This document shows positions 29,787 through 62,373 of a stretch of 64,000 nt of DNA, one piece after another. Source of the stretch: Candidatus Gottesmanbacteria bacterium UBA6580 (lineage in GTDB: Bacteria > Patescibacteriota > Microgenomatia > UBA10105 > UBA927); NCBI GenBank assembly GCA_002433895.1, contig DJJA01000003.1, positions 511,745 through 575,744 on the forward strand, given 5' to 3'. The notes below the pieces were generated by a model. That model worked only from the letters and a program-made list of their open reading frames with translations. It ran no database searches and had not been told where the DNA came from. How positions within the stretch are numbered: position 1 is the first letter of the stretch; every line of letters starts with the position of its first letter. The position numbers and the translations under genes were made by a program.

Positions 29787-30734
29787 ATGGAAAATTACTG
29801 GAAAAACAAAGCAGTACTGGTTACCGGTGCTGGAGGATTTATCGGGTCTCATATGGTGACCGCGCTTGCAGAGAAAGGCGCCAAAGTAACCGCATTTTTT
29901 TCCGCAAACGCAGCCATACCAGAAACACCCGGCGCATTCTCAGCCTCGGGTAATCTTTTATCAATGGAAACTTGTATACAAGCACTGAAAGGACAGGAAG
30001 TGGTGTGTAATATGGCAGCGCTTGATGGAGGTGCAGCCTATAAGCGTTCTCACAGCGAGGAGATATTTACCGTAAATACGACGATAACATCGAATATTTT
30101 GGAAGCAGCGCGGATACACCAGACACGTAAGCTGCTTTTAATGAGCTCAGCCATGGTGTACCCGGCATCACTTTATGGTGTTCTTGATGAAGATAAGGTT
30201 GTTCCGGGTGACACCGCCGATGATGGAGATGGTTACACGCGTTCGAAAAAGAGTATGGAATTGAGCGCGCAACATTACGCAAAGCAATATGGCATGCATA
30301 TTGCCATCGCTCGGCCGGGGAACACGTACGGACCAGGAGATAGTATAGAAAAAGGCAGAATTATTCCGTCATTTATCGACAAAGCACTTCATCATGAATC
30401 AATTACGATAACAGGGATCGGTGAGAATGAAGTGTCTTTTTTGCATGTTGATGATTTAGTAGAGAATTTACTTTCCCTTACTGAATTGTACGCCGTTGCA
30501 GATCCGGTAAATGTAGCGAGTGAGCGATACATACGTATCCGTGAACTTGCGGACATGATCATTAACCTGGCGGGCACCAGCAGTAAGGTTGTCTATACCA
30601 GTGACGCGGCAGATATTCCGCCAAAAAGAGTGCTTTCGGTGGCGAAGGCCAAAAAAGTTATACATTATTCCGAGCACATTTCCTTGGAAAATGGTGTACG
30701 AAATCTCATTGAACAAATGCGCAGAACCAAGTAA
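29787..30734 (+). CDS. NAD-dependent nucleotide-sugar epimerase/dehydratase (SDR)
   Basis: Opens KAVLVTGAGGFIGSHMV and has a YTRSK catalytic motif. Confidence 0.75.
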   Translation: MENYWKNKAVLVTGAGGFIGSHMVTALAEKGAKVTAFFSANAAIPETPGAFSASGNLLSMETCIQALKGQEVVCNMAALDGGAAYKRSHSEEIFTVNTTITSNILEAARIHQTRKLLLMSSAMVYPASLYGVLDEDKVVPGDTADDGDGYTRSKKSMELSAQHYAKQYGMHIAIARPGNTYGPGDSIEKGRIIPSFIDKALHHESITITGIGENEVSFLHVDDLVENLLSLTELYAVADPVNVASERYIRIRELADMIINLAGTSSKVVYTSDAADIPPKRVLSVAKAKKVIHYSEHISLENGVRNLIEQMRRTK

Positions 30735-30745
30735 TATACACCAAT

Positions 30746-31471
30746 ATGTCATTCGTACAACTTCTCAAAAAACAGGCGTTTAAAGTATTTTCAGGTGATT
30801 GGACAAAGGAAGAAAACGAAACGTTTATTTCGTTGATCGAAACAAATCCTGGGTGTAGTCTGGTGGATTTAGGCAGCGGGGAGGGTCGCCTTACTAAGCT
30901 TTTTGCCAAGAAAGCGAAGGCCACAAAAGTTGTGGGTGTTGAGGGTGGGCCGTTGCCAAAGGGCAAAAGCGCTATTACTTTTGTCCGGAGCGACATTAAC
31001 CACAAGCTTCCGTTCAAAAACGGGCAATTTGATGTCGTCATCAGTCATTTTAGTCTCGAACACCTTTATAACACCGGTTTATTTTTGCAGGAATCGAGAA
31101 GAATACTTAAAAAAGGCGGGTATATGCTGATTGCGACAGACAATCTCGCAAATTGGATGAATGTGGCAGCCCTCATTATGGGATGGCAGCCGTTTGTATC
31201 TACGTATGGCGTATCGTCACGGATGCTGGGTAATCCAATGGCGGTCGGGGGAAGTTTTATTGTGAAGGATTTGAGTTTGTTAGGACTGCTGAGTCACAAC
31301 AAGGTTCTGTCGTATCAGATGATTATCGATGCGCTCAAAGAATACGGGTTTGAGGTAGAAGACGTAAGAGGCATCGGTTATCTTATATTTGGCGGATGGA
31401 TATCTAAATTGCTGTGCCGGCTGGACGTGCGCCACTCTCATTTACTAATCGCGAAAGCCCGTAAAAACTAG
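30746..31471 (+). CDS. Class I SAM-dependent methyltransferase
   Basis: Contains LVDLGSGEGRLTKLFAKKAKATKVVGVE...FDVVISHFSLEHL...LKKGGYMLIA. Confidence 0.7.
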   Translation: MSFVQLLKKQAFKVFSGDWTKEENETFISLIETNPGCSLVDLGSGEGRLTKLFAKKAKATKVVGVEGGPLPKGKSAITFVRSDINHKLPFKNGQFDVVISHFSLEHLYNTGLFLQESRRILKKGGYMLIATDNLANWMNVAALIMGWQPFVSTYGVSSRMLGNPMAVGGSFIVKDLSLLGLLSHNKVLSYQMIIDALKEYGFEVEDVRGIGYLIFGGWISKLLCRLDVRHSHLLIAKARKN

Positions 31472-31493
31472 CCCGATATCCTTTAAAGGCCGC

Positions 31494-32744
31494 ATGAGAA
31501 ACGAAGATAATGTGATAGTACTGTCTGAAAAATCCCGGGTGTTGTTTGCAACATTTTCCCCATGGATAAATGGCAGGCGTCTACCAACCAACGGTAGCTT
31601 GGAGCCGCTCCGTGATTTTTTATTACCCCGTGCCGCTGAGATTGTTCTTATCGATCAGCCGTTTCCGGGAAGTGACTTTGTGCTTCCGCGAATAGAGATA
31701 TACCGTAACAGTACAATGACTGCGGGTAAAAATTCGTTTTGGATGTCTTTATTATCCCCATTTCTCCTGATGCAAAACGTATCAGGCACCCGCGTCTCGT
31801 TTAAGGTGCGGGATTTTTGTTCCGTTCTCGATCAGGGTATCCGAAACAAAGGCCAGTTTGATTTTTTTATCGGTTTGGAAAGCATAAATACACTGGCGGG
31901 TATTATTTTAAGAAGATTTGGCAAAGTTAAGCGCGTTGTGTACTATGTATCAGACTACGCTCCCGATAGGTTTGGTAAAGGTGTATTTAATCGCATTTAT
32001 CTATTGTTAGACAGGGTATGTGCGCATCACGCTGATTATATATGGGATGTGTCGAAGGCAATGCAGCCTGCCCGGATTTCAGCAGGGCTGCATCCTGACC
32101 GGTCGGCGCCGGTTATCTACGTCCCGAACGGATTGCTGCCGGAACAAATCCAGTTTGAAAAAAATAATACCGCTTCCTATGGGCGATTAGCGTATATGGG
32201 AACATTGGGTGAAGAAAACGGGCCGGATTTGGCGATCGAAGCTCTCCCGCGGGTGGCAAAGTCTGTCCCGAGTGCGCATCTTGTTATTGTCGGCGGGTAT
32301 CCTGATGACATATCACGTTTGACGGGCTTAGCAAAAAAACTTCATGTTGAAAAAAGAGTAACGTTTCATGGTTTTGTGCAAAGTCCCTTGGAGATGTCAA
32401 AGATATTACGGTCGTGTTATCTCGCGGTCGCGCCATACCGGGCATTTCCGGGATCCGTCCGGTACTTTGCTGACGCCGGAAAAATCCGCGCCTATTGCGC
32501 CGCGGGATTACCCGTGATTACGACTCCTGTTCCGCCTTTGGGTAAGGTTGTCGCGCATCTAGGCGGTGCAATGATTGCAACAGATACCGTCAGCAACTTT
32601 TCCGAGGCAATTATTGAAGTGCTTACGGATAAAAAATTATATGCATCACTACGAAAGGGCGCGATACAATTTGCCAAAGATAGTACGTGGGATCATACCT
32701 TTGCTGAGGCGTTTAGACAGATGACTGTGGTAAGGCGGCGGTAG
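31494..32744 (+). CDS. GT4-like glycosyltransferase
   Basis: 416 aa. The C-terminal half carries a GT4-type nucleotide-binding region (...GLPVITTPVPPLGKVV...). The N-terminus is atypical. Confidence 0.55.
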   Translation: MRNEDNVIVLSEKSRVLFATFSPWINGRRLPTNGSLEPLRDFLLPRAAEIVLIDQPFPGSDFVLPRIEIYRNSTMTAGKNSFWMSLLSPFLLMQNVSGTRVSFKVRDFCSVLDQGIRNKGQFDFFIGLESINTLAGIILRRFGKVKRVVYYVSDYAPDRFGKGVFNRIYLLLDRVCAHHADYIWDVSKAMQPARISAGLHPDRSAPVIYVPNGLLPEQIQFEKNNTASYGRLAYMGTLGEENGPDLAIEALPRVAKSVPSAHLVIVGGYPDDISRLTGLAKKLHVEKRVTFHGFVQSPLEMSKILRSCYLAVAPYRAFPGSVRYFADAGKIRAYCAAGLPVITTPVPPLGKVVAHLGGAMIATDTVSNFSEAIIEVLTDKKLYASLRKGAIQFAKDSTWDHTFAEAFRQMTVVRRR

Positions 32745-32808
32745 TAGGTGATATAGATAGCCATGAGGGAGAAATAGCGATATAATCTCATATATCGGGG
32801 GTAAATAA
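32745..32808 (+). promoter_or_regulatory. Candidate internal promoter and RBS upstream of the GME homolog
   Basis: TAGCCA (32758-32763), a 17-bp spacer, TATAAT (32781-32786), then GGGGGT 6 nt before ATG 32809. Confidence 0.35.
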
Positions 32809-33810
32809 ATGAATACTAAAAACAAAACGAAAATAATCAAAAAAGCATTGGTGTGCGGAGCGGGTGGATTTATCGGCGGACACCTCGTGAAACGCCTTAA
32901 AAAAGAAGGATATTGGGTGAGGGGAGTAGACATTAAGCAGCATGAATACAGCAAAAGCCAGGCAGACGACTTTGTGGTTGGAGACCTCCGTGACCAGAGA
33001 TTTTGTGAAAAAGTGTTTAACCTCCCATTCGATGAGGTATATCAGCTCGCGGCTGATATGGGGGGAGCAGGATACATTTTTACCGGTGATCATGATGCGG
33101 ATGTCATGCACAACTCCGCGCAAATAAACCTCAATGCCTTACATTTCGGGAAACTTGCCAAAATAAAAAAGATATTTTTTTCTTCGTCAGCATGTATTTA
33201 CCCTGAGCGCAATCAAATGGATCCCAATAATCCCAATTGCGCGGAATCATCCGCGTACCCTGCAGCTCCGGACAGTGAGTACGGATGGGAAAAAATATTC
33301 GGCGAGCGTATGTATTTAGCGTACAGGCGAAATTACGGCATGGAAGTGCGCATCGCGCGATTTCATAATATCTTTGGCCCCGAAGGCAGTTGGAACAACG
33401 GCAAGGAAAAATCGCCAGCTGCTATTTGCCGCAAAGTAGCGCAGGCAAAAGACGGAGGCACGATTGAAATGTGGGGAGACGGCAAACAGACCAGGTCATA
33501 TCTTTATATCGATGAGTGTCTGGAAGGGGTGCGTCGGCTGATGAAAAGTACATTTACCGGACCGGTCAATATTGGTTCGGAGGAAATGGTGAGCATAAAT
33601 GAACTCGCAGAGATGGTGATGGATATTGCCGGGAAAAAACTGCAGATAAAACACGTAAAAGGACCATTGGGGGTACGGGGGAGATCATCAGATAACCGTC
33701 TTATCAAAAAAGAGCTTGGCTGGGCGCCGTCTACTAAGCTCTATGATGGCCTCACCAAGACATACGCATGGATAGAGCAACAGGTGAAGCAAAACCGTAA
33801 AGATATATGA
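32809..33810 (+). CDS. gme: GDP-mannose 3,5-epimerase homolog (GDP-L-galactose/GDP-L-gulose forming)
   Basis: Near full-length collinearity with plant GME as recalled from memory: VCGAGGFIGGHLVKRLKKEGYWV; LAADMGGAGYI; SSSACIYPE; RIARFHNIFGPEGSWNNGKEKSPAAICRK; EMWGDGKQTRSYLYIDECLEGVRRLMKS...PVNIGSEEMVSINELAEMV; GPLGVRGRSSDNRLIKKELGWAP. Confidence 0.85.
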   Translation: MNTKNKTKIIKKALVCGAGGFIGGHLVKRLKKEGYWVRGVDIKQHEYSKSQADDFVVGDLRDQRFCEKVFNLPFDEVYQLAADMGGAGYIFTGDHDADVMHNSAQINLNALHFGKLAKIKKIFFSSSACIYPERNQMDPNNPNCAESSAYPAAPDSEYGWEKIFGERMYLAYRRNYGMEVRIARFHNIFGPEGSWNNGKEKSPAAICRKVAQAKDGGTIEMWGDGKQTRSYLYIDECLEGVRRLMKSTFTGPVNIGSEEMVSINELAEMVMDIAGKKLQIKHVKGPLGVRGRSSDNRLIKKELGWAPSTKLYDGLTKTYAWIEQQVKQNRKDI

Positions 33811-34622
33811 AAACAAACTTAGTTATCGGATCAAGCGGATTTATCGGAAAGCCTTTCTGTGAGTTTTTAGAGAGTAAAGGCGAACGGGTTATTCCATTTG
33901 ATATAAAACGGGGCGAGCACGAAGATGCTCGTGCCGCAACGTTGCCACTTACTGATGTAGACAACGTATATTTTTTGGCGTGGGATGTCGGCGGAAGTAA
34001 ATATCTCTATGAGCCCAAGCTTCAGAAAAATCAATTAGATTGGAATTTGGCGCTTATGAAAAATGTTTTTGATCAACTGGAGAAGTCAAAGAAAAATTTT
34101 CTGTTTGTTTCCAGTCAGCTGTCTGAAGAAGTAGACACGGTGTACGGGGTCACAAAGCGGTTGGGAGAGGTGTGGACGTCGCTTTTGGGTGGCGTGTGTG
34201 TACGGGTGTGGAATGCCTATGGTGTTATGGAGGGGGAGGATATCAAAAGCCATGTGATATCTGACTTTATTTATCAGGCGTTCAAAACCAAAAAAATTAT
34301 GATGATGACCGATGGCCGCGAATGGCGGCAATTTACCCATATCACCGATTTATCAAACGCGTTTTATATGTCAGTGAATAGTGAAAATCTGCGGCGAACG
34401 GTGTATGACGCATCGAGTTACGAATGGGTGCGTATCCGGGATATCGCGGATATGATCGGTGACATGACGGGGGCTACAGTCATACCCGGCACCAAAATAG
34501 GGCATGATCCTATTGCTTCTCCCAACATGGGAAGAATTCCGGGTTGGCTTCCCACCATAGCGCTTCGTGACGGTATTGCCCGGATGGTAGAGGAAGCCAA
34601 GAAAATACACCAAAGCCTATGA
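33807..34622 (+). CDS. Short SDR-family NAD(P)-dependent sugar epimerase/reductase (RmlD-like size)
   Basis: Opens LVIGSSGFIGKPFCEFL and has a YGVTK catalytic YxxxK. 271 aa. ATGA-coupled to the GME homolog. Confidence 0.6.
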   Translation: MKTNLVIGSSGFIGKPFCEFLESKGERVIPFDIKRGEHEDARAATLPLTDVDNVYFLAWDVGGSKYLYEPKLQKNQLDWNLALMKNVFDQLEKSKKNFLFVSSQLSEEVDTVYGVTKRLGEVWTSLLGGVCVRVWNAYGVMEGEDIKSHVISDFIYQAFKTKKIMMMTDGREWRQFTHITDLSNAFYMSVNSENLRRTVYDASSYEWVRIRDIADMIGDMTGATVIPGTKIGHDPIASPNMGRIPGWLPTIALRDGIARMVEEAKKIHQSL

Positions 34623-34652
34623 GCGCTGTTAACGTCTAGTAAAGAGAATGTT

Positions 34653-35369
34653 GTGAATATACTCTCCACAATTTACTATTTTTATCAAAGGAAAATACAA
34701 CCCGGTTTCCGGGTAAATAAAACCGATCTCGTTGTCGATATCGGTTCCGGTGATAAGCCATTTTGGAGAGGCGACGTTTTTGTCGATAAACTATCGTTGG
34801 GAAACGCGCAACGCGACACCCAATTCGGTACTATACGTGATATCGGCAAGTTCGTTGATAGCGATGTCGCGCACATGCCGTTTCATGATAAGGCGTTTGA
34901 TTTTTCTTTTTGTTCACACTTACTCGAGCACGTTGATGATCCCGGAGCGGTGATTAAAGAAATTACCCGCGTATCTCGCGCCGGATATCTCGAAGTGCCC
35001 AACGGTATATTGGAAACCATCCGGCCATTCCGGAGCCACTTATGGTTCGTCTACTGGACAAGGAATAAATTAGTATTTGTGCGAAAAAGTAAAAAAATGC
35101 ACGACGTGCTGTCGCAAAACGGGATTACCTATGATCATATGTTGGGGAAAATCCCTTCGCCTTTTATCCGTTTATATTGGAAAGGGAGCATTCCTTACGA
35201 AGTTATTGACACCCTTAAGCCTGCCGAACGTTTCGTGAGTGTGGTGGGTGATGTGGTTCCGCAGCCCGCAAAGGCACTTCATGGGTATACAATTATGGTG
35301 CGGGTAATACGCGCATTATTTTATAAGGAAAAACAGGAACATATGCTCGCCAAGACATTAAAGAAATAA
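34653..35369 (+). CDS. Class I SAM-dependent methyltransferase
   Basis: Contains VVDIGSGDKPF...HMPFHDKAFDFSFCSHLLEHVDDPGAVIKEI. Confidence 0.65.
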   Translation: MNILSTIYYFYQRKIQPGFRVNKTDLVVDIGSGDKPFWRGDVFVDKLSLGNAQRDTQFGTIRDIGKFVDSDVAHMPFHDKAFDFSFCSHLLEHVDDPGAVIKEITRVSRAGYLEVPNGILETIRPFRSHLWFVYWTRNKLVFVRKSKKMHDVLSQNGITYDHMLGKIPSPFIRLYWKGSIPYEVIDTLKPAERFVSVVGDVVPQPAKALHGYTIMVRVIRALFYKEKQEHMLAKTLKK

Positions 35370-35396
35370 TTACCGGTTTATCCGGTGGGAACTTGT

Positions 35397-36002
35397 ATGG
35401 AACGTATATCTCAATTCGTATCCGCAGTCAGACGTAAAGGATTTATAGAAACCTCATTGCACCTTGTTGTGATGGGTATTGGCAGGGTAACTTCCTGGTT
35501 GCGGATAATTGTATTGAGGCTACGCGGGTATGACATTGCTTCCTCAGCGCTTTTGGGAAGTAACATATTATTTTTCCAAAGCACGTGGCGCGCGGTGAAA
35601 GTGGGTAACAATTCACGGATAGGTAATAACGCACGGGTCAGTGCCGGCGGGACTGGGAACGTTGTCATTGCAAATGATGTATTGATCGACGATAGCACCT
35701 ACGTCATGGCGCACGAAAAAATAATCATCGGTAAGAATACGAAAATTGCTGCATTTTGTTTTATTACCGATTTTAACCATGAGTTCCGTGACCGGGAAAA
35801 ACCACTTAAAGATCAGGGGTATGTTACCAAACCGGTGGTGATAGGTGAGAACGTGTGGATAGGTACACACGTGGTGGTGTTACCTGGTGTCACTATTGGG
35901 CCGGGTAGCGTGATCGGCGCGGGGTCGGTGGTGACAAAAGACATACCCGGAAATGTCGTAGCTGTAGGAAATCCCGCCCGTGTCATACGAAAGGCGTCCT
36001 AA
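35397..36002 (+). CDS. Hexapeptide-repeat (left-handed beta-helix) acetyltransferase
   Basis: Repeats IGNNARVSAGGTGNVVI...IGKNTKIA...IGENVWIGTHVVVLPGVTIGPGSVIGAGSVVTKDIPGNVVAVGNPARVIRK. The ORF track starts at GTG 35385. ATG 35397 is preferred because it is preceded by GGTGGGA. Confidence 0.75.
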   Translation: MERISQFVSAVRRKGFIETSLHLVVMGIGRVTSWLRIIVLRLRGYDIASSALLGSNILFFQSTWRAVKVGNNSRIGNNARVSAGGTGNVVIANDVLIDDSTYVMAHEKIIIGKNTKIAAFCFITDFNHEFRDREKPLKDQGYVTKPVVIGENVWIGTHVVVLPGVTIGPGSVIGAGSVVTKDIPGNVVAVGNPARVIRKAS

Positions 36003-38225
36003 ATGAGAATGGAAAAAAAAGTACCCCCACGGATTTGGCTGATGATGAACGTGGTAATCGTGGGCTTGCTTTTATTTTTGCCCTATTATTTATTCGGCGG
36101 GAGATTATTTTTAGGAGGCGATGATACTCGGATTTTTTATGCGTATCCCCGTGAGGTGATGCAAAGCCTCGCAATATATTCGTGGAATACGATTTCATCG
36201 CTCTCTTCCTATACGCCTAACCATCAGTTTTTCCCGTTTTTGGCCATTCTTTCATGGTTAGAGACGCTCATCCAGTCAAAAACTCTGTTGTTTTATTTTA
36301 CTTTTTCATTGCCGCTTATACTGGGATTTATTTATTTCCAGAAATTCGTTCTGCTAATTATAAAAAGCGAGTATTATGCAGCATTTGTTGTCGCGTTGCT
36401 TTATATACTATCTCCCGTGACCATGTTTAGCCAGTTATTATATTTCCTTTCCCCGGCATGGCTGATCGCTCTGTTTCCGATTTATGCCTATTATTTTTTG
36501 AAGTACATTCAACACGGGGGTTCGACGGATGTGTACAAAGTTGTATTTTGGGCAATTTTGTTTTCGTTTGCAAATCTTGGAGTGCCATGGTTGGGTGGAC
36601 TTTTTTTACCATTTATACCAGCAATTATTTTGTTTTTTATCCGGGATAGACGGTCAATTCTTCCGTATGTTAAGCGGAGCGTCATTTTTGGGATTTCGCT
36701 TGCGGTAAGCCAGTTATTTTGGGTCGTGCCATTTGTTATATCACTCTTATATCAGGGGGACATCGGTTATGCCGCCCGGGTGACCGATGCTGCCGCAACA
36801 TTTGCCGCAACCGTCAATGGAACAGCGACCGGTAATGTAATATATCCGCTCCTCACATTTTATCACCGGCAGTTTTTAAGCGATATTAATCAGCCGCTTG
36901 TGGCAATATTTGCTAACTACTATGATTATATACTGCCAATAAGTCTTATTTTTGTCGTGATATTGGCCATGGGGATTTTGCAGTATAAAAAAGTGTTTCG
37001 GAACGAACATTTGTACGTTTTCCACATTTTTTTAATTGCTTTTTTGGCAGCACTATATTTTTTCACAGTAAATATAGGTGTGCTTAAGGACATCTTTATT
37101 CTGATGGGATACATCCCCGGGTTCGGTATGTTCCGGAATTTTACTGACAAGTTTGCGCTCGGGTATATTTTCGTGTATGCGTCTCTTCTATATATATGTC
37201 TATTTGTTATACATAAGACCAGTAAATTTTATCGACTCATCCTCGTTACCGCATTCATTGCAGTATTCCTGAATGCAGCCCCCGTTAAACAGATTGTTGA
37301 TAGTCCATTATGGACGACCAAAGATATTTCCAGAATCCTAAATATCCCCTCTGAATATCTTTCGTTTATGGACGATATCCGTAAAAATATTCCTCCTTCC
37401 GGTCAGATTTTTAGCTTACCACAAAATATCGCTTCGTACGCAATTATTACCGAGGATGACGGGAGGCACACTTACGCTGGTGTATCGCCTGTTAAATTTT
37501 TTACCGGAGTAAATGACCTCAGTGGTAGTGGTTCGTATCCTCCGCAAATAGAAGAGCAGATTAAAGGTGCAATAATAGCGCGAAATTACGAAAAACTATT
37601 GACTATACTCCGTAAAATTAATGTCTCGCATGTAATGGTAACGAACAACACGCCGCCGTCTGTACGAAAATCTTATATGTATAACGCAGATTATCTTTCA
37701 TATCAGGATCAGGCGCTGGTGGACGCAATTGTTGACAAAGAGGTGATGAGGAGCACTCAGGGTAATTACGTATTATATCAACTAAAGAATCCTACAATGG
37801 TGATAACATCTCAGGCTAACATCGACTATATACGTGTATCTCCTATCCAGTACGAAGTGACAGTACGTGGCATATCATCGCCGCAGAAACTCCTATTTGC
37901 GGAAACGTATCATCCCGGCTGGAAAGTATATCCCTCAACGGGAGCTGGAAAAACGGATAATGAAACAACGTTATACACTAAGCTCGACAAAGCATTGTTC
38001 GTTGACTCTCATAAACCCGCATCATCCTATGGTAATGAATGGACAATCGATCCCATGGCTATCAGAGCTTTAGGTAGTTCGTACTACACGTCAAACACAG
38101 ATGGAAGTGTAAACGCAAAAATTGTGCTGTATTTTCAACCGCAGATATACGCTTATGTAGGCGCAATACTCACCTTTTTTTCACTTAGTGTTGTTTTTAT
38201 ATACCTGAAAAAACAAAAGATATGA
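36003..38225 (+). CDS. Large YfhO-like/GT-C polytopic membrane protein with C-terminal extracytoplasmic domain
   Basis: 740 aa. N-terminal loop GGDDTRIFYAYPRE, more than 12 TM helices, then a soluble domain containing AETYHPGWKVYPSTG and a final TM helix. Confidence 0.5.
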   Translation: MRMEKKVPPRIWLMMNVVIVGLLLFLPYYLFGGRLFLGGDDTRIFYAYPREVMQSLAIYSWNTISSLSSYTPNHQFFPFLAILSWLETLIQSKTLLFYFTFSLPLILGFIYFQKFVLLIIKSEYYAAFVVALLYILSPVTMFSQLLYFLSPAWLIALFPIYAYYFLKYIQHGGSTDVYKVVFWAILFSFANLGVPWLGGLFLPFIPAIILFFIRDRRSILPYVKRSVIFGISLAVSQLFWVVPFVISLLYQGDIGYAARVTDAAATFAATVNGTATGNVIYPLLTFYHRQFLSDINQPLVAIFANYYDYILPISLIFVVILAMGILQYKKVFRNEHLYVFHIFLIAFLAALYFFTVNIGVLKDIFILMGYIPGFGMFRNFTDKFALGYIFVYASLLYICLFVIHKTSKFYRLILVTAFIAVFLNAAPVKQIVDSPLWTTKDISRILNIPSEYLSFMDDIRKNIPPSGQIFSLPQNIASYAIITEDDGRHTYAGVSPVKFFTGVNDLSGSGSYPPQIEEQIKGAIIARNYEKLLTILRKINVSHVMVTNNTPPSVRKSYMYNADYLSYQDQALVDAIVDKEVMRSTQGNYVLYQLKNPTMVITSQANIDYIRVSPIQYEVTVRGISSPQKLLFAETYHPGWKVYPSTGAGKTDNETTLYTKLDKALFVDSHKPASSYGNEWTIDPMAIRALGSSYYTSNTDGSVNAKIVLYFQPQIYAYVGAILTFFSLSVVFIYLKKQKI

Positions 38226-41200
38226 TGTCAGCACCAGATATTATTAAAAAATATATTGTCGTACCTATCGCACTTTTGTTGTTCTGGCTTATTATTTCGC
38301 TCATTGTGGTTTCTTCCGAGAGTTTTACTGTTTTGACGTATCCGGAAACCAATAACTCTCGTATTGTAAGCACCGACGACGGGTATTTGATGAAAGGACA
38401 AAAGCTAAGAGGTGAGTTTGTCGCCAGACAAGACAATCTTGGTATAGTGTCGGTAAAAGTGGACAAAGTGAGTTATACCGGCGAAGAAGATTTACTCGTA
38501 TTCAGGATAAAAGAGCAAGGCGCAAGCGATTGGCTACACACAAATGAATATAAAGGCGGAATATTTCGGGGGAGCAGAGTTTTTACTTTTGGCTTTCCGA
38601 TAATTGAGTCATCTCGGGGACACACGTATTATTTTGAATTGGAGTCTTTGAAGGGTACTGCCGTCAATGCTATTCAAATTTCGAACGCAAGCCCCATCAT
38701 TACCAGTAGATATAAGTTTTCTAAGAGTGATATTTTAAATACCTCTTTCTTTCCCGAATTCCTGATTGCGAAAGTACACACATTGTTTATTAACACTGAC
38801 CATTTGTCTTCTACGGTGATATTTCTAATGCCGTTTGTTTTGTACATAATGGGGTTGTTATATAACGCCCGCAATATCAGTGTATTTAAAAAATACCAGT
38901 TCATCGCATTGATGGTGGTCTTATTTATTTTTTACGATACTTTTTTCGCGCGACTGCATTTGGAGATAGTCTTTTTTACCTTATTGGCATTTTGGTTATA
39001 TGCCATTCATATAAACAAGATGAGCCACGCAATTTCTTTATATCTGGCACTTCTGATACTCGTGGTGAGCGTTTGTTTTACATATTCTAAAATAGAATTC
39101 TCTATAAACAGGGCGAGCGCATGGATTTACTTCCTTATCCTAATTGCCGGGGTGCAATCTATATATGGCCTATACACACCAGCCGCTGACTTTATGCGGA
39201 ATATAACCTCAAGACTTTTCGCGCCTTTACATAAATTGGCAGCACCGAAGATAGAAGGTACCACGCTATTAGTTATCGTAGTGATGTTATTTATTTACCG
39301 AAATTGGCTCGGGGGAGGCTTACTGACCGCTCCTGATTTTCCCTACTATTTCACCCAGCGGTTTAGTGAAATCAATTGGTTGCCTTCGGCATGGACAAAT
39401 TTAGGCGCCTCAAGCCTTGGCGAGCCGGGGTTAAGCGGGTTAAATCTGAATACGTATGTAAGTATCGGAACGAAGCTTTTTGTGCAGATTTTCCGGATAC
39501 CATGGGACGTAGCGTCACGTATGCTCTTTTTTTGGCCATTTTTACTAGTGGGCGCTCTCTCATCATATTACTGTGGATATTTCATGCTAAAAAACCGATT
39601 ATGGGCAACGTTATCCATGCTTATTTATCTGTCGAATTCCTACATTCTTATGATTGCCGGTGGCGGCCAAGTTGGTATATTTATGGCGTACGCAATAGCT
39701 CCTCTTGTTCTGGGAAGTTTTACGCGGCGTAGTGTTGTGATCTTTACAATCGCGCTAACACTCATATTGTTGTTTGATCTGCGGATAAGTTTGCTTATAT
39801 TCTTTGTCCTGTTTTTGTACGTTATATGCGTCCTACCAGTGAAGGAGTGGTCAGGTGTTATTCGTTTCGGTATATTGCCAGCGGTTATTACACTTGGACT
39901 TCACAGTTTTTGGTTGCTTCCGGTGATAGCCGCGCGCGGCATTACCTTGCCCGGTGATTTTGCAGATCCCAAATGGCTGACGTTTTTAAGTTGGGCGGAG
40001 TTTTCCAAAACACTATCGTTGCTTCATCCAAATTGGCCAGAAAATATTTTCGGAAAAACGTATTTTATGCAACCTGAGTTTTTGTTGTTGCCGATTGCTG
40101 CCTATGGATCGCTATATTTGCTTATCCAAAAACGCAGAGGGATCATACGCGATGTCTCGGTGAATGCTTTCCCGACATACAGGATACTTATCTTTGTCTC
40201 ATTGCTCGGATTAATCGGCGCATTTTTATCCAAAGGGGTAAACCCTCCAATCGGGGAATTGTACCGCTGGATGTTTGAGCATGTACCGTTTTTCAGCGCT
40301 TTCCGTGAACCAACCAAGTTTTATTTGCTGACATCGCTTTCTTATAGCGTGCTTATCCCATGGTCACTTATGGCAGCAACAACATGGATAGAACATAGAT
40401 TTAAATATGTTTCTGCCGCGCCCGTGATAGTGTTTATTTTGTCAGTTATCACTTGGAGCGGGATTATCCGTCAGGTGTTTTTGGGTGAGGTTCGCGGATC
40501 ATTCTCTCGGGTGACAGTGCCGCCCGCATACCAGCAATTTGCAGGACTAGTAACAATGACGCCGGATTTTAGCAGGACTCTTGCAGCTCCATGGAAAAAT
40601 AGATTTATTTACGAATCAGAAAATCATCCGGTAATAAGTGCAAGTGAGGTGTTTCATACGACTGATATACGCACGCTGGCTGACATTCTTGAAACCGCAT
40701 CTGCCGCTGCGACACTCCGGAGGCTGGCAGTCACTCATATTGTTGTGCCTGATGATTTTATGCACGAAATTTTTCTTACTGATCGGCAATATGATCCTAA
40801 TTTGCAGCGTCAGTTAGTTCGTTCTCTTGATAATCAACAGTATTTTCGCAAAAGAGATGATGTAGTTGGGCTTGATGTATACGCCGCCACTTCGGACAGT
40901 GGATTATTTTATGCAGATGATGATAAGGCAAGCACACTGTTTCCCCACTCCATGTATTCGCCGGCAAAGTATATTGTTACTATTCCTGACTACAATACGA
41001 TTTCTCCTATGGTTTTTGCCCAGGGCTATGATCCCGGATGGCGGCTGTGGGACGGAAACACCGTTATGCCGAGTGAAAAAACGGCTGATGGGCTGAACAG
41101 CTTCAGGATAGAGGTGAGTAAGCCAGTAACTGCTGAAGTGTATTATGAGCCGCAGCAATGGGTGGATAAGGGGTACAAGGTTACCGTTTTCATATTCATT

Positions 41201-42232
41201 ATTGTGATGACCGGAATTGTTATCAGGCAATTTAGCAAAATTCTTCCTCTAAAATTCAGTTATTTGGCTTTTATACTTACACTTGGAATGGCATCGTATA
41301 TATGGCGCGGAGGTTTTATTACACCCCGTGAAGTAATTACGGATCCGAATATACGATGGGGTCAGCAGTGGGGGACTGTGTCTGTTGCAGGGTTTACTGA
41401 AAAGGTATCGCGCTACGGGGGAAGCGAGATGCTATTTGTGGTGCCGGGGGGGTCGGGTGTGAAGATTACCATAGCTCAGTACCGCCCTGAACAGGATAAC
41501 GCAGTGCAGATATGGGTAGACGGAAAAGAGCATGCTGTATCAGAGACGGCGAATGTATCCGAACAAACGATACATATTTTAGCGGAAAAACATCCGCGTA
41601 GCGTACGGGTGCGTACATATTGTTCAGGTGATTTATTTTGTCAGACCCGTATCAGATCCATAAAGCTTCATAATAAAGGAAGCCTTGCGAAAGTGAATGA
41701 GGATCCTGTTACAAAAATGGCAGTATTGGGTGATAGTCTTACATCACTATATGGGCACCATAATTATGTGTATAAAATCGCCGATAAGCTAAACTGGCAG
41801 ATTCATAACGCCTCTTTTATCGGTTCTACATTAACGGATCATCCCGGCGTTCTTCCGGGTATTACAAGGCTAAAGAGTGATATCGTTGCCATAAAGCCTG
41901 ATGTTATCGTGTTGGCCTTGGGGACGAACGACGCGATCCAACGGGTTCCAATTGATGAGTTTGTCCGCACATATGAACAGATGATTGCTGATATACGGGA
42001 GTCGCTGCCTAACGTGAAGATGTATTCGGTAGGGTTACTGGCAAACTACGCAGGAGTAATTCCAGTGGTTGATGGGTATAATAATGCGATAAAGGCTGTG
42101 AGCAAAGCACAAAATGTGTCATATATTCCTATGAACATGATTTTACAAAAGTATGATTTTGTGGATACGATCCATCCGTCAGAAGAAGCGCAGGAAAAAA
42201 TGGCTGAACACGTATTAACATTTATCGAATAA
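38222..42232 (+). CDS. Giant membrane protein: N-terminal extracytoplasmic domain, YfhO-like multi-TM core, YDPGW beta-domain, and C-terminal SGNH/GDSL hydrolase domain
   Basis: 1336 aa. Hydrophobic core from about aa 190 to 760. AQGYDPGWRLWDGN motif and a TM at about aa 975. The C-terminus reads KMAVLGDSLTSLYG...VIVLALGTNDA...VDTIHPSEEAQEKMAEHV, matching SGNH blocks I, III and V (Ser, Gly/Asn, Asp-x-x-His). Confidence 0.6.
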   Translation: MMSAPDIIKKYIVVPIALLLFWLIISLIVVSSESFTVLTYPETNNSRIVSTDDGYLMKGQKLRGEFVARQDNLGIVSVKVDKVSYTGEEDLLVFRIKEQGASDWLHTNEYKGGIFRGSRVFTFGFPIIESSRGHTYYFELESLKGTAVNAIQISNASPIITSRYKFSKSDILNTSFFPEFLIAKVHTLFINTDHLSSTVIFLMPFVLYIMGLLYNARNISVFKKYQFIALMVVLFIFYDTFFARLHLEIVFFTLLAFWLYAIHINKMSHAISLYLALLILVVSVCFTYSKIEFSINRASAWIYFLILIAGVQSIYGLYTPAADFMRNITSRLFAPLHKLAAPKIEGTTLLVIVVMLFIYRNWLGGGLLTAPDFPYYFTQRFSEINWLPSAWTNLGASSLGEPGLSGLNLNTYVSIGTKLFVQIFRIPWDVASRMLFFWPFLLVGALSSYYCGYFMLKNRLWATLSMLIYLSNSYILMIAGGGQVGIFMAYAIAPLVLGSFTRRSVVIFTIALTLILLFDLRISLLIFFVLFLYVICVLPVKEWSGVIRFGILPAVITLGLHSFWLLPVIAARGITLPGDFADPKWLTFLSWAEFSKTLSLLHPNWPENIFGKTYFMQPEFLLLPIAAYGSLYLLIQKRRGIIRDVSVNAFPTYRILIFVSLLGLIGAFLSKGVNPPIGELYRWMFEHVPFFSAFREPTKFYLLTSLSYSVLIPWSLMAATTWIEHRFKYVSAAPVIVFILSVITWSGIIRQVFLGEVRGSFSRVTVPPAYQQFAGLVTMTPDFSRTLAAPWKNRFIYESENHPVISASEVFHTTDIRTLADILETASAAATLRRLAVTHIVVPDDFMHEIFLTDRQYDPNLQRQLVRSLDNQQYFRKRDDVVGLDVYAATSDSGLFYADDDKASTLFPHSMYSPAKYIVTIPDYNTISPMVFAQGYDPGWRLWDGNTVMPSEKTADGLNSFRIEVSKPVTAEVYYEPQQWVDKGYKVTVFIFIIVMTGIVIRQFSKILPLKFSYLAFILTLGMASYIWRGGFITPREVITDPNIRWGQQWGTVSVAGFTEKVSRYGGSEMLFVVPGGSGVKITIAQYRPEQDNAVQIWVDGKEHAVSETANVSEQTIHILAEKHPRSVRVRTYCSGDLFCQTRIRSIKLHNKGSLAKVNEDPVTKMAVLGDSLTSLYGHHNYVYKIADKLNWQIHNASFIGSTLTDHPGVLPGITRLKSDIVAIKPDVIVLALGTNDAIQRVPIDEFVRTYEQMIADIRESLPNVKMYSVGLLANYAGVIPVVDGYNNAIKAVSKAQNVSYIPMNMILQKYDFVDTIHPSEEAQEKMAEHVLTFIE

Positions 42233-42243
42233 TAATTTTACAT

Positions 42244-43914: not shown

Positions 43915-43918
43915 CTTT

Positions 43919-44533
43919 TCATTTAATTTTTTCTGCGATCACAAACATTCCATGTGAGAGAGGTCTGATGCGCCCGTACTGATTGTATTCCAGAACTCGA
44001 AAACCGTGCGATTCGACCATTTTTATTAAACTTTTCTTGGTAAAAAATCGAATGTGTGGGGTTGTTGGTTCGTAGACGATATCAAATCCAATAAGTGCGA
44101 TAACAATATTTTTTATAAGACCGTGATAAGGAGTGCTGATAAATATTTTGCCGCCATTTTTTAAAATTCTATTCATTTGTGTTAGAAAAATTCTGGCATC
44201 AAAAATATGCTCAATAACATCCCCAGCTATAACATAATCGACCGAATTACTTTTTACGGGAATTTTTTCATCACCTGAAATTCGATAAAATGTTACATCG
44301 GGAAATCTTTTTTTTGCTTTTTTGAGTGCGTATTCTGAGATATCGGCACCGATCATCTTATATGTGCCTACGTCTGAGATGGCCTGAATATACCGACCGT
44401 CTCCGCAACCAAAATCGAGAATAGTACTGTTTTTCTTGGGAAGTGTGCGTTTTATGTTTGGCCACTTCCATTTGAAGTCATTACTGACTCCTATGGCGCC
44501 GTCTTTCCACCATTGATCATAGAATTTTTTCAT
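43919..44533 (-). CDS. Class I SAM-dependent methyltransferase
   Basis: Contains ILDFGCGDGRYIQAISDVG...VIAGDVIEHIFDARIFLTQMNRILKNGGKIFISTP. Convergent with the upstream + gene, with only 4 bp between the two stops. Confidence 0.75.
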   Translation of the reverse strand: MKKFYDQWWKDGAIGVSNDFKWKWPNIKRTLPKKNSTILDFGCGDGRYIQAISDVGTYKMIGADISEYALKKAKKRFPDVTFYRISGDEKIPVKSNSVDYVIAGDVIEHIFDARIFLTQMNRILKNGGKIFISTPYHGLIKNIVIALIGFDIVYEPTTPHIRFFTKKSLIKMVESHGFRVLEYNQYGRIRPLSHGMFVIAEKIK

Positions 44534-44558
44534 GGTGAATAGTATAGCAGTTTGTATG

Positions 44559-60189: not shown

Positions 60190-61291
60190 TCGTGTGAACA
60201 AATGGGGAGGTGCTGAAAGGGTGCTCCTTGCCCTACATAAAATCTGGCCTGACGCGCCACTGTTTACTGCGGTGTATGACAAGAAACGCGCGGCATGGGC
60301 AGATGTGTTTGAGGTACACCCTTCTTTCTTGCAGCGCATTCCCGGCGCGTCTTTTGCGCATGAATCATTGCCTGGTCTCACTCCTATGGCGTTCGAGGCA
60401 TTTATGTTTGATGAATACGATGTGGTGATTTCCGTTACGAGCGCTGAGGCCAAAAATATTATTACTAAACCCCAAACTCTGCATATCTGTTATTGCCTCA
60501 CACCTACACGGTATTTGTGGAGCGGGTTTGACCAGTACCTGAAGCAGCCAGGATTAGGCAAACTAAGCGCTATCGCGGGATGGGGTTTAAAAACATTTGC
60601 TCCTATGCTTCGGCGGTGGGATGTCGTAGCAGCAAGCAGACCTGATTTTTTTATCGCGATTTCTCAACGGGTAAAGGAACGGATCAGAAAGTATTACGGT
60701 CGCGATGTCGTAGCGGTTGTCTACCCGCCAGTTGATACGGGGAGATTTGTGTCACGCGGATCCGCAACTCGCGCAAACGGCGATTACTTTTTGACCGTAT
60801 CAAGACTGGTGAGTTATAAGAGGCTGGATATAATCATCCAGGCATTTAACGCGTTATCGCTTCCATTGATAATTATCGGGGACGGACGACAGAAACGGGA
60901 ACTCAAAAAAATGGCCGGTCCGTCAATCCGGTTTATCGATCATCATTTGACAGATTCTGAACTTGTCCGATATTATGAGGGATGTCGCGCGTTTGTGTAT
61001 GCCGCTGATGAAGACTTCGGACTTGCCGCCGCGGAAGCACAAGCGTTGGGGGTTCCGGTCATAGCATACAGTCAAAGCGGAGTTGCAGAGGTTGTAAAAG
61101 ATCGTGTATCGGGCGTATTATTTGATCAGCAGACAGTTACGTCACTGAAAACGGCAGTAGGTAAATTTTTATCGTTGCGGTTTTCGAAAAAGGTTTGTCG
61201 CGCTCAGGTAGAAGCAATGAGTGAAGCACATTTTCGTAAAAGTATAAGCGATATAGTCCATTCTTTGCACCAAAAAAATAAACATATATGA
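60167..61291 (+). CDS. GT4-family glycosyltransferase
   Basis: Opens MKVAFVYDRVNKWGGAERV and contains AADEDFGLAAAEAQALGVPVIAYSQSG. Confidence 0.8.
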   Translation: MKVAFVYDRVNKWGGAERVLLALHKIWPDAPLFTAVYDKKRAAWADVFEVHPSFLQRIPGASFAHESLPGLTPMAFEAFMFDEYDVVISVTSAEAKNIITKPQTLHICYCLTPTRYLWSGFDQYLKQPGLGKLSAIAGWGLKTFAPMLRRWDVVAASRPDFFIAISQRVKERIRKYYGRDVVAVVYPPVDTGRFVSRGSATRANGDYFLTVSRLVSYKRLDIIIQAFNALSLPLIIIGDGRQKRELKKMAGPSIRFIDHHLTDSELVRYYEGCRAFVYAADEDFGLAAAEAQALGVPVIAYSQSGVAEVVKDRVSGVLFDQQTVTSLKTAVGKFLSLRFSKKVCRAQVEAMSEAHFRKSISDIVHSLHQKNKHI

Positions 61292-62373
61292 AAGCAATTA
61301 TTTTTGCAGGAGGAGTAGGAACTCGATTGTGGCCACTTTCCCGTAAAAAATCTCCCAAGCAGTTTGAAAAAATTATCGGTGATAAATCCACGCTGCAATT
61401 AGCGGCAGAGCGTTTGCAACCAGATTTTTCGTGGGAAGATGTGTATGTGTCCACTGGCGCGCGCTATGTACCGATCGTACAGCAGCAGTTATCAAAGTTA
61501 CCCCCGCGTCAGGTTATTGGTGAGCCGGAGGTTCGTGATGTCGGTCCCGCAGTAGGACTCATGACAGCTATTTTGGCAAAAGAATCACCTGAAGAGCCGA
61601 TGGTAATTCTCTGGAGTGATCACTTGGTTAAAAAGCAGGAATTGTTCCGCCGGCTGCTTCGCGTTGCCGGAGAGGTAGTGAAGAAAGATCCGGAAAAGAT
61701 TGTCTTTGTGGCACAAAAACCCCGGTTTGCCAGCGAAAATTTGGGATGGATATCATACGGATCCGAAGTGACGGAACAAGATGGTGTTACATTTAACAAC
61801 TTCGTGGACTTCCAATACCGCCCGGACGCCAAAACGGCAAAAGCATATTTTGAGAGCGGACATCACGCGTGGAATTTAGGGTACTTTGTGACCACTCCCG
61901 CGTTTTTATGGAAGCAATATCAGGCGTTTGCTCCGAATTTAGCGACCAGCATCATGAAAATCGCTGATCAATGGGGCACGCCACAGTTTTCGAAAGTATT
62001 GGAAGAAGTATATCCGACACTGGAAAAAATAAGCTTTGATAACGCGATACTTGAAAAATTGGATCCCAGCGCCGCGCTGGTTGTATCAGAAAATATTGAG
62101 TGGAGCGATATCGGCGCATGGGAAGCGCTCAAGGAGGCACTCGAGGAAACAAATGATAAAAACGTGACGCAGGGGAAAGTGATGCTTACGGATACCAACG
62201 ACAGTCTGGTGTATAACTACAACGATAAGCAATTGGTCGTCACCATAGATATGGATGAAGTTCTGGTGGTAAACACTGATGATGTGCTGCTTGTTTGTCG
62301 CAAATCTTCGGTTCCTAAAGTGAAAAAACTGGTCGAATCTATGCACGGTACGGAAAACGATCATTTAACCTAG
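61288..62373 (+). CDS. manC: Mannose-1-phosphate guanylyltransferase (sugar nucleotidyltransferase)
   Basis: Opens MKAIIFAGGVGTRLWPLSRKKSPKQF, the GG-x-GTRLWPLSR...PKQF signature of ManC/CpsB-type enzymes. 361 aa. Confidence 0.75.
   Translation: MKAIIFAGGVGTRLWPLSRKKSPKQFEKIIGDKSTLQLAAERLQPDFSWEDVYVSTGARYVPIVQQQLSKLPPRQVIGEPEVRDVGPAVGLMTAILAKESPEEPMVILWSDHLVKKQELFRRLLRVAGEVVKKDPEKIVFVAQKPRFASENLGWISYGSEVTEQDGVTFNNFVDFQYRPDAKTAKAYFESGHHAWNLGYFVTTPAFLWKQYQAFAPNLATSIMKIADQWGTPQFSKVLEEVYPTLEKISFDNAILEKLDPSAALVVSENIEWSDIGAWEALKEALEETNDKNVTQGKVMLTDTNDSLVYNYNDKQLVVTIDMDEVLVVNTDDVLLVCRKSSVPKVKKLVESMHGTENDHLT

What the first reader, a model, noticed from the sequence alone, without database searches (positions are those of the whole stretch)
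32745..34622. Bacterial homolog of plant GDP-mannose 3,5-epimerase (GME) coupled to a short SDR
The 333-aa ORF is collinear with plant GME over essentially its whole length, with many identical blocks listed in the feature evidence. GME makes GDP-L-galactose and GDP-L-gulose, sugars that are rare in bacterial glycans. It is translationally coupled by an ATGA overlap to a 271-aa SDR that could be a partner reductase or epimerase acting on the GDP-L-sugar. ManC at 61288 supplies the GDP-mannose substrate. This suggests an L-galactose- or L-gulose-containing, or derived 6-deoxy-L-hexose-containing, glycan.
Basis: partly seen in the sequence, partly recalled or inferred. Interest (0 to 1): 0.6.

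Follow-up and report, generated by a model that had tools for sequence, protein, structure and literature searches.

The report
Bacterial GDP-mannose epimerase plus compact SDR
A gene in a candidate-phyla-radiation bacterium is a clear relative of the plant enzyme that turns GDP-mannose into GDP-L-galactose, a kind of enzyme already known in bacteria, and it is tightly linked to a small uncharacterised sugar-modifying enzyme whose substrate is still unknown.

Summary
ORF A (32809-33810, 333 aa) is 49% identical to Arabidopsis GME over 321 residues (338 bits; the best non-GME structure scores 105). It keeps all eight GM35E hallmark residues. ORF B (33807-34622, 271 aa) overlaps it by ATGA. The window comes from a Patescibacteria genome, most like Gottesmanbacteria, and lies inside a roughly 60 kb surface-glycan region.

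The GME call is well supported but ordinary. A bacterial GM35E was characterised in 2019, and close homologues are abundant in metagenomes of many GC contents.

B belongs to a small, compact, uncharacterised nucleotide-sugar SDR family. It has an NAD-type Asp32 and a Ser103/Tyr113/Lys117 triad. It lacks the epimerase Cys and has a deletion of about 19 residues after strand 5.

GME-B adjacency (gap -4 to +28 nt) holds in 23 Patescibacteria-like loci, usually with a GT4 and an acetyltransferase. However, B occurs without GME in about 30 loci of other lineages, and 61 of 62 other GME loci lack B. B acting on the GDP-L-sugar is therefore plausible but unproven. A 6-deoxy route is not supported, because the window has no Gmd.

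Verdict: a new member of a known kind, of modest interest.

The parts
32758..32786 (+). Promoter-like site (TAGCCA-17-TATAAT) in the 64-nt spacer upstream of the GME gene
   Evidence: Best consensus match in 31000-36500 (10 of 12). The number of such sites in the region is not above the shuffled expectation, so this is only a hint.
32809..33810 (+). ORF A: GDP-mannose 3,5-epimerase (GM35E/GME) orthologue, 333 aa
   Evidence: 338 bits, E=5.5e-100 to AtGME, with the next family at 105 bits. 49% identity over 321 columns. Hallmark residues S127, C129, Y158, K162, N187, K201, R229 and R292 are present and invariant in 32 homologues.
33807..33810 (+). ATGA stop/start overlap between A and B
   Evidence: Sequence read directly. 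The same -4 overlap or a gap of at most 28 nt is seen in 23 of 23 related loci.
33807..34622 (+). ORF B: compact (271 aa) NAD-type nucleotide-sugar SDR of an uncharacterised family
   Evidence: Pfam PF01370 at 61.9 bits. The best PDB profile hit is only 42 bits. AF2 model has pLDDT 92.4. Foldseek gives generic NS-SDR neighbours at about 20% identity. G8/G11/G14, D32, S103, Y113, K117 and H149 are invariant. The family has only 136 representative clusters at E<=1e-30.
31494..32744 (+). GT4-type glycosyltransferase, co-conserved with the pair; candidate transferase for the product
   Evidence: Pfam Glycos_transf_1. A homologue is present in 19 of 24 GME+B loci and in 1 of 35 B-only loci. Among 80 metagenome GME loci it is found only in L067, the one locus that also has B.
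34653..35369 (+). Class I methyltransferase downstream of B
   Evidence: Pfam Methyltransf_11. Small methyltransferases (clusters C4/C30) follow the pair in most related loci.
35385..36002 (+). Hexapeptide-repeat O-acetyltransferase (WbbJ/WcaF-like), co-conserved with the pair
   Evidence: Pfam Hexapep; NCBIfam WbbJ at 110 bits, below cut-off. A homologue is present in 18 of 24 GME+B loci and in 1 of 35 B-only loci.
61288..62373 (+). Mannose-1-phosphate guanylyltransferase-like gene (ManC without the isomerase domain); likely GDP-mannose supply
   Evidence: Pfam NTP_transferase plus ManC_GMP_beta-helix. TIGR01479 scores 229 bits over profile positions 2-350 of 467.

Best explanation
ORF A is a true GDP-mannose 3,5-epimerase. 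It is an NAD+-retaining extended SDR that oxidises C4 of GDP-D-mannose, inverts C5 and C3 with a Cys129/Lys201 acid-base pair, and reduces C4 again. The products are GDP-L-galactose and/or GDP-L-gulose. In this Gottesmanbacteria-like Patescibacteria genome it is the first gene of a clade-specific cassette: GME, compact SDR B, a GT4 glycosyltransferase, a methyltransferase and an acetyltransferase. The cassette sits in a roughly 60 kb surface-glycan region and most likely makes, transfers and decorates an L-hexose residue. GDP-mannose would come from the ManC-like enzyme. ORF B is a catalytically intact, NAD-type, unusually compact nucleotide-sugar SDR of an uncharacterised family. Its most likely role, inferred and not shown, is a redox-neutral modification such as an epimerisation of a GDP-hexose pool related to the GME or Fcl products, feeding the adjacent glycosyltransferase. 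It is not a second 3,5-epimerase, and it is not obligately tied to GME.
For: Evidence for A:
- It scores 338 bits against AtGME and 105 for the next family, with 49% identity.
- All GM35E hallmark residues named in PMC8787198 are present and invariant.
- JGI already names homologues GDP-D-mannose 3',5'-epimerase.

Evidence for the cassette:
- GME lies directly upstream of B in all 24 genome loci of the clade that have room upstream. The gap, measured in the 23 loci where both genes were called, is -4 to +28 nt.
- The flanks reshuffle, yet the GT4 is present in 19 of 24 loci and the acetyltransferase in 18 of 24.

Evidence for B:
- D32 at the end of strand 2 and S103/Y113/K117 are invariant.
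- It has the NS-SDR fold.

Links between the B family and GDP-sugars:
- Gmd, Fcl or GT11 genes lie near B in 8 loci that lack GME.
- One family member is fused to an HddA/fucokinase-like GHMP kinase. Others are fused to GT2 and to a CmcI-like methyltransferase.
- The ManC-like gene is in the window.
Against: - No enzyme activity was tested.
- The product ratio (L-Gal against L-Gul) cannot be read from sequence.
- B occurs without GME within 10 kb in about 30 loci from Parcubacteria, Verrucomicrobia, Victivallales, Smithella, Acidobacteria and others. Its conserved residues are the same there, and the group-specific differences are only conservative. This argues that its substrate is not specific to GME products.
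- 61 of 62 metagenome GME loci have no B.
- B has no specific affinity to any solved GDP-sugar enzyme. Its top PDB profile hits are UDP-sugar enzymes at about 40 bits.
- Most B loci without GME show no GDP-sugar gene nearby.
Confidence: 0.6

Rival explanations
1. B does not touch the GME product. It is a general-purpose epimerase or oxidoreductase for another sugar donor, either a UDP- or dTDP-sugar or a polyprenyl-phosphate-linked sugar made by the neighbouring GT2/GT4. It sits next to GME only because both feed the same glycan.
For: B occurs without GME in about 30 loci, typically after a Wzx-like flippase and before a GT2. B is fused to GT2 domains in P0290 and P0320. The conserved residues are identical in GME-linked and GME-free members. 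The nearest PDB profiles are UDP-sugar enzymes: Mth375, BcUGAepi, UXS and MoeE5. The deletion after strand 5 should open the sugar pocket (inference).
Against: The -4 to +28 nt coupling to GME is kept in 23 of 23 loci while the flanking genes change. GME-linked B forms one clade. Several GME-free loci carry GDP-fucose genes. One family member is fused to an HddA/fucokinase-like kinase.
Confidence: 0.35
2. A is not a double epimerase in vivo. It would be a GDP-L-gulose-forming 5-epimerase (BlmG-like), or it would act on a different GDP-sugar.
For: GM35Es release both L-Gal and L-Gul, and single 3- or 5-epimerases are discussed as possible relatives (PMC8787198). BlmG, at 42% identity to AtGME, is linked to L-gulose (PMC6678494).
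Against: A is as similar to AtGME (49%) as the characterised bacterial MfGM35E is (50.5%). It keeps every residue used for both epimerisations.
Confidence: 0.12
3. A and B form a hetero-oligomer in which B tunes or channels GME products rather than catalysing an independent step. The translational coupling would serve to set stoichiometry.
For: The ATGA overlap and very short gaps are conserved. GME is a dimer that uses Rossmann-face helices (PMC8787198).
Against: B keeps an intact, invariant catalytic triad and NAD site. It exists alone in many lineages. No interaction test was possible.
Confidence: 0.05
4. A is really a GDP-L-fucose synthase or a UDP-glucose 4-epimerase that was mis-read as GME.
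For: NCBIfam lists Fcl as the top model, because the hmmscan returned no GME-named model for A.
Against: The Fcl score is 121 bits against a cut-off of 500, and galE is 75 against 262. The PDB GME score is three times that of any other family. The base residue is Lys201, not the His of GMER, and Arg292 is present rather than Lys.
Confidence: 0.02

Closest known systems
GDP-mannose 3,5-epimerase (GM35E/GME, EC 5.1.3.18; A. thaliana 2C59; Methylacidiphilum fumariolicum MfGM35E)
   Same: ORF A aligns with AtGME end to end at 49% identity. It has the same Gly motif, Ser/Tyr/Lys triad, Cys/Lys acid-base pair, and the Arg306, Arg243 and Asn203 equivalents. Like MfGM35E, it sits beside a glycosyltransferase and a methyltransferase in a surface-glycan context.
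   Different: It has no plant N-terminal extension (333 aa against 377 aa). It comes from a Patescibacteria genome and is translationally coupled to a compact SDR, a link not seen in 61 of 62 other GME loci. Its activity has not been tested.
GDP-L-fucose synthase (GMER/Fcl/WcaG)
   Same: It is an extended SDR acting on a GDP-hexose with an L-galacto product. By profile alignment, B's invariant His149 ('KSHVISDF') lies on the Fcl 'NSHVIP' His, and B's Ser103 lies on the catalytic Ser.
   Different: B has Leu105 where Fcl has the catalytic Cys. It has Asp32 (NAD-type) instead of an NADPH site, lacks about 19 residues after strand 5, and scores 18.8 bits against a cut-off of 500. A has Lys, not His, as the base.
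UDP-sugar 4-epimerases and decarboxylases (GalE, BcUGAepi, MoeE5, UXS, Mth375/Mth373)
   Same: These are the nearest solved structures and profiles to B. They share the NS-SDR fold, the NAD-type Asp after strand 2, the triad, and the NxYG and RxF motifs.
   Different: Identity is only about 20% and profile scores are about 40 bits. B is 30-60 residues shorter. It has no UXS Glu and no dehydratase Asp-Glu after the catalytic Ser. Its nucleotide specificity is unknown.

Membership tests
GM35E / GME (ORF A) | Extended SDR fold with an N-terminal GxxGxxG NAD+ motif | tested here: met
   GAGGFIG at residues 17-23. Pfam PF01370 at 145.9 bits and PF16363 at 102 bits.
GM35E / GME (ORF A) | Catalytic triad Ser143/Tyr174/Lys178 (AtGME numbering) | tested here: met
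   S127, Y158 and K162 by the alignment. They are invariant in 32 homologues.
GM35E / GME (ORF A) | Cys145/Lys217 acid-base pair (Lys, not the His of GMER) | tested here: met
   C129 and K201, both invariant. The definition comes from PMC8787198.
GM35E / GME (ORF A) | Arg306 (acidifies the Cys), Arg243 (diphosphate contact) and Asn203 | tested here: met
   R292, R229 and N187 are present and invariant.
GM35E / GME (ORF A) | Closer to characterised GMEs than to any other NS-SDR family | tested here: met
   338 bits to AtGME and 327 to Myrciaria GME, against 105 bits for UXS and 89 for GFS.
GM35E / GME (ORF A) | [quoted passage not shown] | not testable with these tools
   This needs an enzyme assay.
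GDP-L-fucose synthase (ORF A) | Passes the NCBIfam NF047922 equivalog cut-off and has the Cys/His pair | tested here: not met
   121 bits against a cut-off of 500. The base position holds Lys201.
UDP-glucose 4-epimerase GalE (ORF A) | Passes the TIGR01179 cut-off | tested here: not met
   74.7 bits against a cut-off of 262.3. By contrast, the window's own GalE at 48151-49137 scores 393.6.
Nucleotide-sugar extended SDR (ORF B) | Rossmann Gly motif, Ser/Tyr/Lys triad and a C-terminal substrate domain | tested here: met
   G8/G11/G14, S103, Y113 and K117 are invariant in 90 sequences. PF01370 at 61.9 bits. AF2 pLDDT 92.4, with TM about 0.8 to NS-SDR structures.
GM35E / GME (ORF B) | Cys two residues after the catalytic Ser, and Lys217 as the second acid/base | tested here: not met
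   Leu105 lies at the position that holds the catalytic Cys in the Fcl-like family (profile alignment), and the family has no Cys in the SSQL motif. GME structures score only about 33 bits.
GDP-L-fucose synthase (ORF B) | Cys109/His179 pair, NADPH site and equivalog score | tested here: not met
   The His149 equivalent is present, but the Cys is replaced by Leu105. Asp32 is NAD-type. The score is 18.8 bits against a cut-off of 500.
RmlD-type 4-reductases (ORF B) | RmlD substrate-binding domain (PF04321) | tested here: not met
   No PF04321 match at E<=0.001.

The most novel reading that the evidence does not exclude
The compact SDR B founds a new nucleotide-sugar SDR specificity acting on L-galacto-configured GDP-hexoses: GDP-L-galactose or GDP-L-gulose from GME in Microgenomates, and GDP-L-fucose in other phyla. 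It might be a C4- or C2-epimerase. If so, these ultra-small bacteria would decorate their surface with an L-hexose, methylated or acetylated, whose activated form has not been described.
Probability: 0.2. Interest if true: 0.55.

Novelty: new member of a known kind. Interest (0 to 1): 0.3.

Why it matters
If the GME is active, Gottesmanbacteria-like Patescibacteria put L-galactose or L-gulose into a cell-surface glycan. That would be a small addition to what is known about the envelopes of these uncultured episymbionts. It would also add another, possibly easily expressed, bacterial GM35E for making rare L-sugars.

The more open question is the compact SDR family. It is small, with 136 representative clusters, and it is conserved from Patescibacteria to Verrucomicrobia and Bacteroidota-labelled assemblies. 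It is sometimes fused to GT2, to methyltransferase or to GHMP-kinase domains, and it has no assigned activity. Defining that activity would add one entry to the catalogue of nucleotide-sugar SDR specificities.

Tried and rejected
- **NCBIfam.** No equivalog passes for A or B; no GME-named model was returned for A, and Fcl tops the list far below cut-off.
- **PDB searches with B.** The sequence and profile searches and the Foldseek search of a confident AF2 model return only generic NS-SDRs at about 20% identity. Nothing discriminates the substrate.
- **Literature.** No paper links Patescibacteria/CPR with GDP-L-galactose or GME. The first two literature queries failed on term syntax or returned nothing.
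- **6-deoxy route.** I looked for Gmd and Fcl in the window. Only 22-27% identity matches to generic SDRs turned up, so this route is rejected.
- **ManC next to B.** I looked for a ManC next to B in other loci and found none at >=35% identity.
- **B as a universal GME partner.** Rejected by the metagenome scan, where 1 of 62 loci has B.
- **B as a degenerate GME paralogue or pseudogene.** Rejected because the family shows 70-74% mean column identity with an invariant triad.
- **Promoter and terminator scans.** They gave counts at chance level.
- **tRNAs.** None in the window.
Full report
**Observation**

The two ORFs exist as described. ORF A is 32809-33810 (+, 333 aa). ORF B is 33807-34622 (+, 271 aa). 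The finding's start at 32745 only adds the 64-nt spacer after the upstream glycosyltransferase gene. The junction reads GATATATGAAAACA, so the stop codon of A and the start codon of B overlap as ATGA.

**Origin and setting**

- Exact and near-exact copies of A occur on contigs of up to 1.1-1.2 Mb, with near-identical ones labelled 'Patescibacteria group bacterium'.
- The closest named genome locus is Candidatus Gottesmanbacteria UBA5942, with A at 94.5% and B at 90% identity.
- Nearly every gene from about 4.9 kb to 63 kb is on the + strand and belongs to glycan synthesis. The genes include:
  - about eight GT-C-like membrane proteins (PMT_2, YfhO, GT87, PTPS_related);
  - many GT2 and GT4 enzymes;
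  - methyltransferases and two hexapeptide acetyltransferases;
  - a Wzx-like flippase;
  - six extended SDRs, one of which is a GalE that passes its equivalog cut-off;
  - a ManC-like guanylyltransferase at 61288-62373;
  - a Bac_transf priming transferase at 62379-63023.

**ORF A is a GDP-mannose 3,5-epimerase orthologue**

- Against all PDB sequences the top five hits are plant GMEs: 2c59 at E=5.5e-100 and 338 bits over residues 12-330, and Myrciaria GME at 327 bits. The next family, UDP-xylose synthase, scores 105 bits and GDP-fucose synthase 89.
- BLASTP gives 49% identity over 321 columns. This is about the same as the 50.5% reported for the characterised bacterial enzyme MfGM35E (PMC6678494).
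- The review of the family (PMC8787198) names the defining residues: the triad S143/Y174/K178, the acid-base pair C145/K217, R306, R243 and N203.
- Allowing for the two extra residues in PDB chain numbering, these map to S127, Y158, K162, C129, K201, R292, R229 and N187 of A. All are present and all are invariant in an alignment of 32 Patescibacteria homologues.
- The features that separate GME from GDP-fucose synthase (Lys rather than His as base, Arg rather than Lys next to the Cys) are of the GME type.
- No equivalog passes its NCBIfam cut-off and no GME-named model was returned. Fcl tops its list at 121 bits against a cut-off of 500, and GalE scores 75 against 262.

**How unusual is a bacterial GME?**

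Not very.

- A bacterial GM35E was expressed and characterised in 2019. BlmG and the A201A pathway are further bacterial examples.
- JGI already names several homologues 'GDP-D-mannose 3',5'-epimerase'.
The 80 kept are 67-75% identical to A and lie on contigs with GC from 0.30 to 0.71, that is, from many phyla.
- I found no paper that discusses GME in Patescibacteria.

**ORF B**

- B has Pfam PF01370 at 62 bits, but it is far from anything characterised. The best PDB hit with the single sequence is 27 bits. With a family profile it is 42 bits, to Mth375, followed by UDP-GlcA 4-epimerase, UXS, MoeE5, GME at about 33 and GFS at about 30.
- A confident AF2 model (pLDDT 92.4, pTM 0.90) finds only generic nucleotide-sugar SDRs at 17-22% identity, with query-normalised TM-scores of about 0.7-0.8.
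- Family alignments (15 and 90 sequences) show invariant G8/G11/G14.
- Asp32 is invariant and sits at the end of strand 2 (strand 27-31 in the model). From general SDR knowledge this is the NAD rather than NADP signature, typical of enzymes that keep NAD+ bound.
- Ser103 is invariant at the end of strand 5, and Tyr113 and Lys117 are invariant at the start of the next helix.
- Only ten residues separate the Ser and the Tyr. Profile alignment to an Fcl-like family shows a 19-residue deletion there. It places Leu105 at the position of the epimerase Cys, and it aligns the invariant His149 ('KSHVISDF') with the Fcl 'NSHVIP' His.
- B therefore looks catalytically intact. It is not a GME- or GFS-type 3,5-epimerase, it is not a dehydratase or decarboxylase by motif, and it probably has a more open sugar pocket (inference).
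- The family is small. phmmer against 1.84 billion representatives gives 136 clusters at E<=1e-30 and only 1611 at E<=1e-3, nearly all 260-290 aa long.

**Linkage of A and B**

- A genome scan with the B profile returned 60 loci. In 24 of them a GME (68-94% identical to A) lies directly upstream of B.
- The gap between the GME stop and the B start is -4 to +28 nt in 23 of 23 measurable loci.
- These B sequences form one clade.
- The flanks reshuffle. For example, the GT4 lies upstream of the pair in the window but downstream in most relatives, and some loci have opposite-strand neighbours. The pair nevertheless stays together.
- A GT4 homologue is present in 19 of 24 loci and the hexapeptide acetyltransferase in 18 of 24. 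Each is present in only 1 of 35 B loci without a confirmed GME.
- The linkage is not general in either direction. About 30 loci labelled Parcubacteria/Paceibacterota, Falkowbacteria, Saccharibacteria, Verrucomicrobia, Victivallales, Smithella, Thermoanaerobaculaceae, Sumerlaeota and Bacteroidota carry B (50-60% identity, down to 34%) with no GME within 10 kb.
- Of 62 metagenome GME loci with room downstream, only one (L067, GC 0.37) has B. It has the whole cassette of B, GT4, methyltransferase and acetyltransferase.
- Residues conserved in GME-linked and GME-free B are the same. The eight group-specific differences are conservative (S64A, F88M, A137V, K147R, I155V, T177I, L182V, Y205F). The chemistry is therefore probably the same in both settings.

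**What the other contexts of B say**

- In GME-free loci B usually follows a Wzx-like flippase and precedes a GT2, with small methyltransferases nearby.
- Eight such loci also have a GT11 fucosyltransferase-family gene within 10 kb (PF01531, 130 bits for the cluster representative). Three of them (L027, L029, L036) also carry Gmd (TIGR01472 at 566 bits, above cut-off) and an Fcl-like gene (476 bits, just under cut-off).
- Family members are fused to GT2 (P0290, P0320), to a CmcI-like O-methyltransferase (P0263) and to a GHMP kinase weakly resembling HddA and fucokinase (P0293; 59 and 53 bits).
- Taken together, this ties B to making, transferring and methylating one sugar residue. It gives a moderate hint that the sugar is a GDP-hexose of the mannose, L-galactose or L-fucose family.
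- It does not show that B acts on the GME product. The B-GT2 fusions and the widened pocket equally allow action on another donor or on a lipid-linked sugar.

**Best reading**

- A makes GDP-L-galactose and/or GDP-L-gulose from GDP-mannose. Family membership is shown by sequence. The activity is inferred.
- The Microgenomates-specific cassette of GME, B, GT4, methyltransferase and acetyltransferase installs and decorates an L-hexose on a surface glycan. This is inferred from co-conservation.
- B is an NAD-type, redox-neutral modifier of a nucleotide sugar. It is possibly but not demonstrably a modifier of the GDP-L-hexose (inferred, low confidence).
- The 6-deoxy-L-hexose idea is not supported, because the window has no Gmd.
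- The ManC-like gene can supply GDP-mannose, but it is 27 kb away and lacks the isomerase domain.

**Verdict**

A is a new member of a well-known enzyme family. The only fresh element is its clade-specific translational coupling to a small, uncharacterised, compact SDR family. Interest is modest at 0.3. It would rise if B proved to create a new GDP-L-sugar.

Noticed in passing
window 1014-63023: Almost the whole window is one + strand glycan-synthesis region of about 60 kb. It holds about eight GT-C-like membrane proteins (PMT_2, YfhO, GT87, PTPS_related), many GT2 and GT4 enzymes, 6-7 methyltransferases, two hexapeptide acetyltransferases, six extended SDRs, a Wzx-like flippase and a Bac_transf priming enzyme. 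That is a large share of a genome of about 1.1 Mb.
   Followed up: partly
window 29787-30734: A third SDR (315 aa) is a distant GME/UXS/GFS relative. It scores about 100 bits to GME structures and is 27% identical to ORF A. It has SSAMVYP where GME has SSACIYP, that is, Met in place of the catalytic Cys. Homologues (at least 30% identity) occur in 6 of 24 GME+B loci. Its function is unknown.
   Followed up: partly
proteins P0263, P0290, P0293, P0320, P0380, P0386: B-family domains occur fused to GT2, to a CmcI-like methyltransferase and to an HddA/fucokinase-like GHMP kinase. P0380 and P0386 have an N-terminal hydrophobic anchor, and P0380 also a Pro-rich stretch. Both carry an unknown C-terminal domain. 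They look like eukaryotic type II membrane proteins.
   Followed up: partly
L065:505-3392: In a GC 0.52 metagenome contig, GME is followed directly by a GT11 (fucosyltransferase-family) gene and a Gmd. This hints at L-galactosyl or L-fucosyl transfer by a GT11 in another phylum. GT11 also lies near GME in L124 and L139.
   Followed up: no
loci L006, L011-L013, L017-L026, L031, L047, L050, L057, L063: Many TPA_asm MAG records titled 'uncultured Gammaproteobacteria' or 'Methanosarcinales' carry Patescibacteria-like GME+B cassettes, on contigs of up to 0.55-0.84 Mb. These taxonomic labels look unreliable.
   Followed up: no
window 36003-42232 and 52310-55501: There are very large proteins with little or no Pfam signal. 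One is a 740-aa polytopic membrane protein, co-conserved in 6 of 24 GME+B loci. One is a 1336-aa protein with only a C-terminal GDSL lipase/acylhydrolase domain. One is a 1063-aa protein with no match.
   Followed up: no
window 36001-46000: GC content drops to 0.40-0.41, compared with 0.44-0.49 elsewhere, and GC skew falls to near zero around 36-38 kb and 44-46 kb. This may be a differently acquired or membrane-protein-rich segment.
   Followed up: no
L013:8856-9841: The GME homologue matches in two overlapping pieces, in different frames, and sits about 160 nt from B. It may be a frameshifted pseudogene or an assembly error.
   Followed up: no
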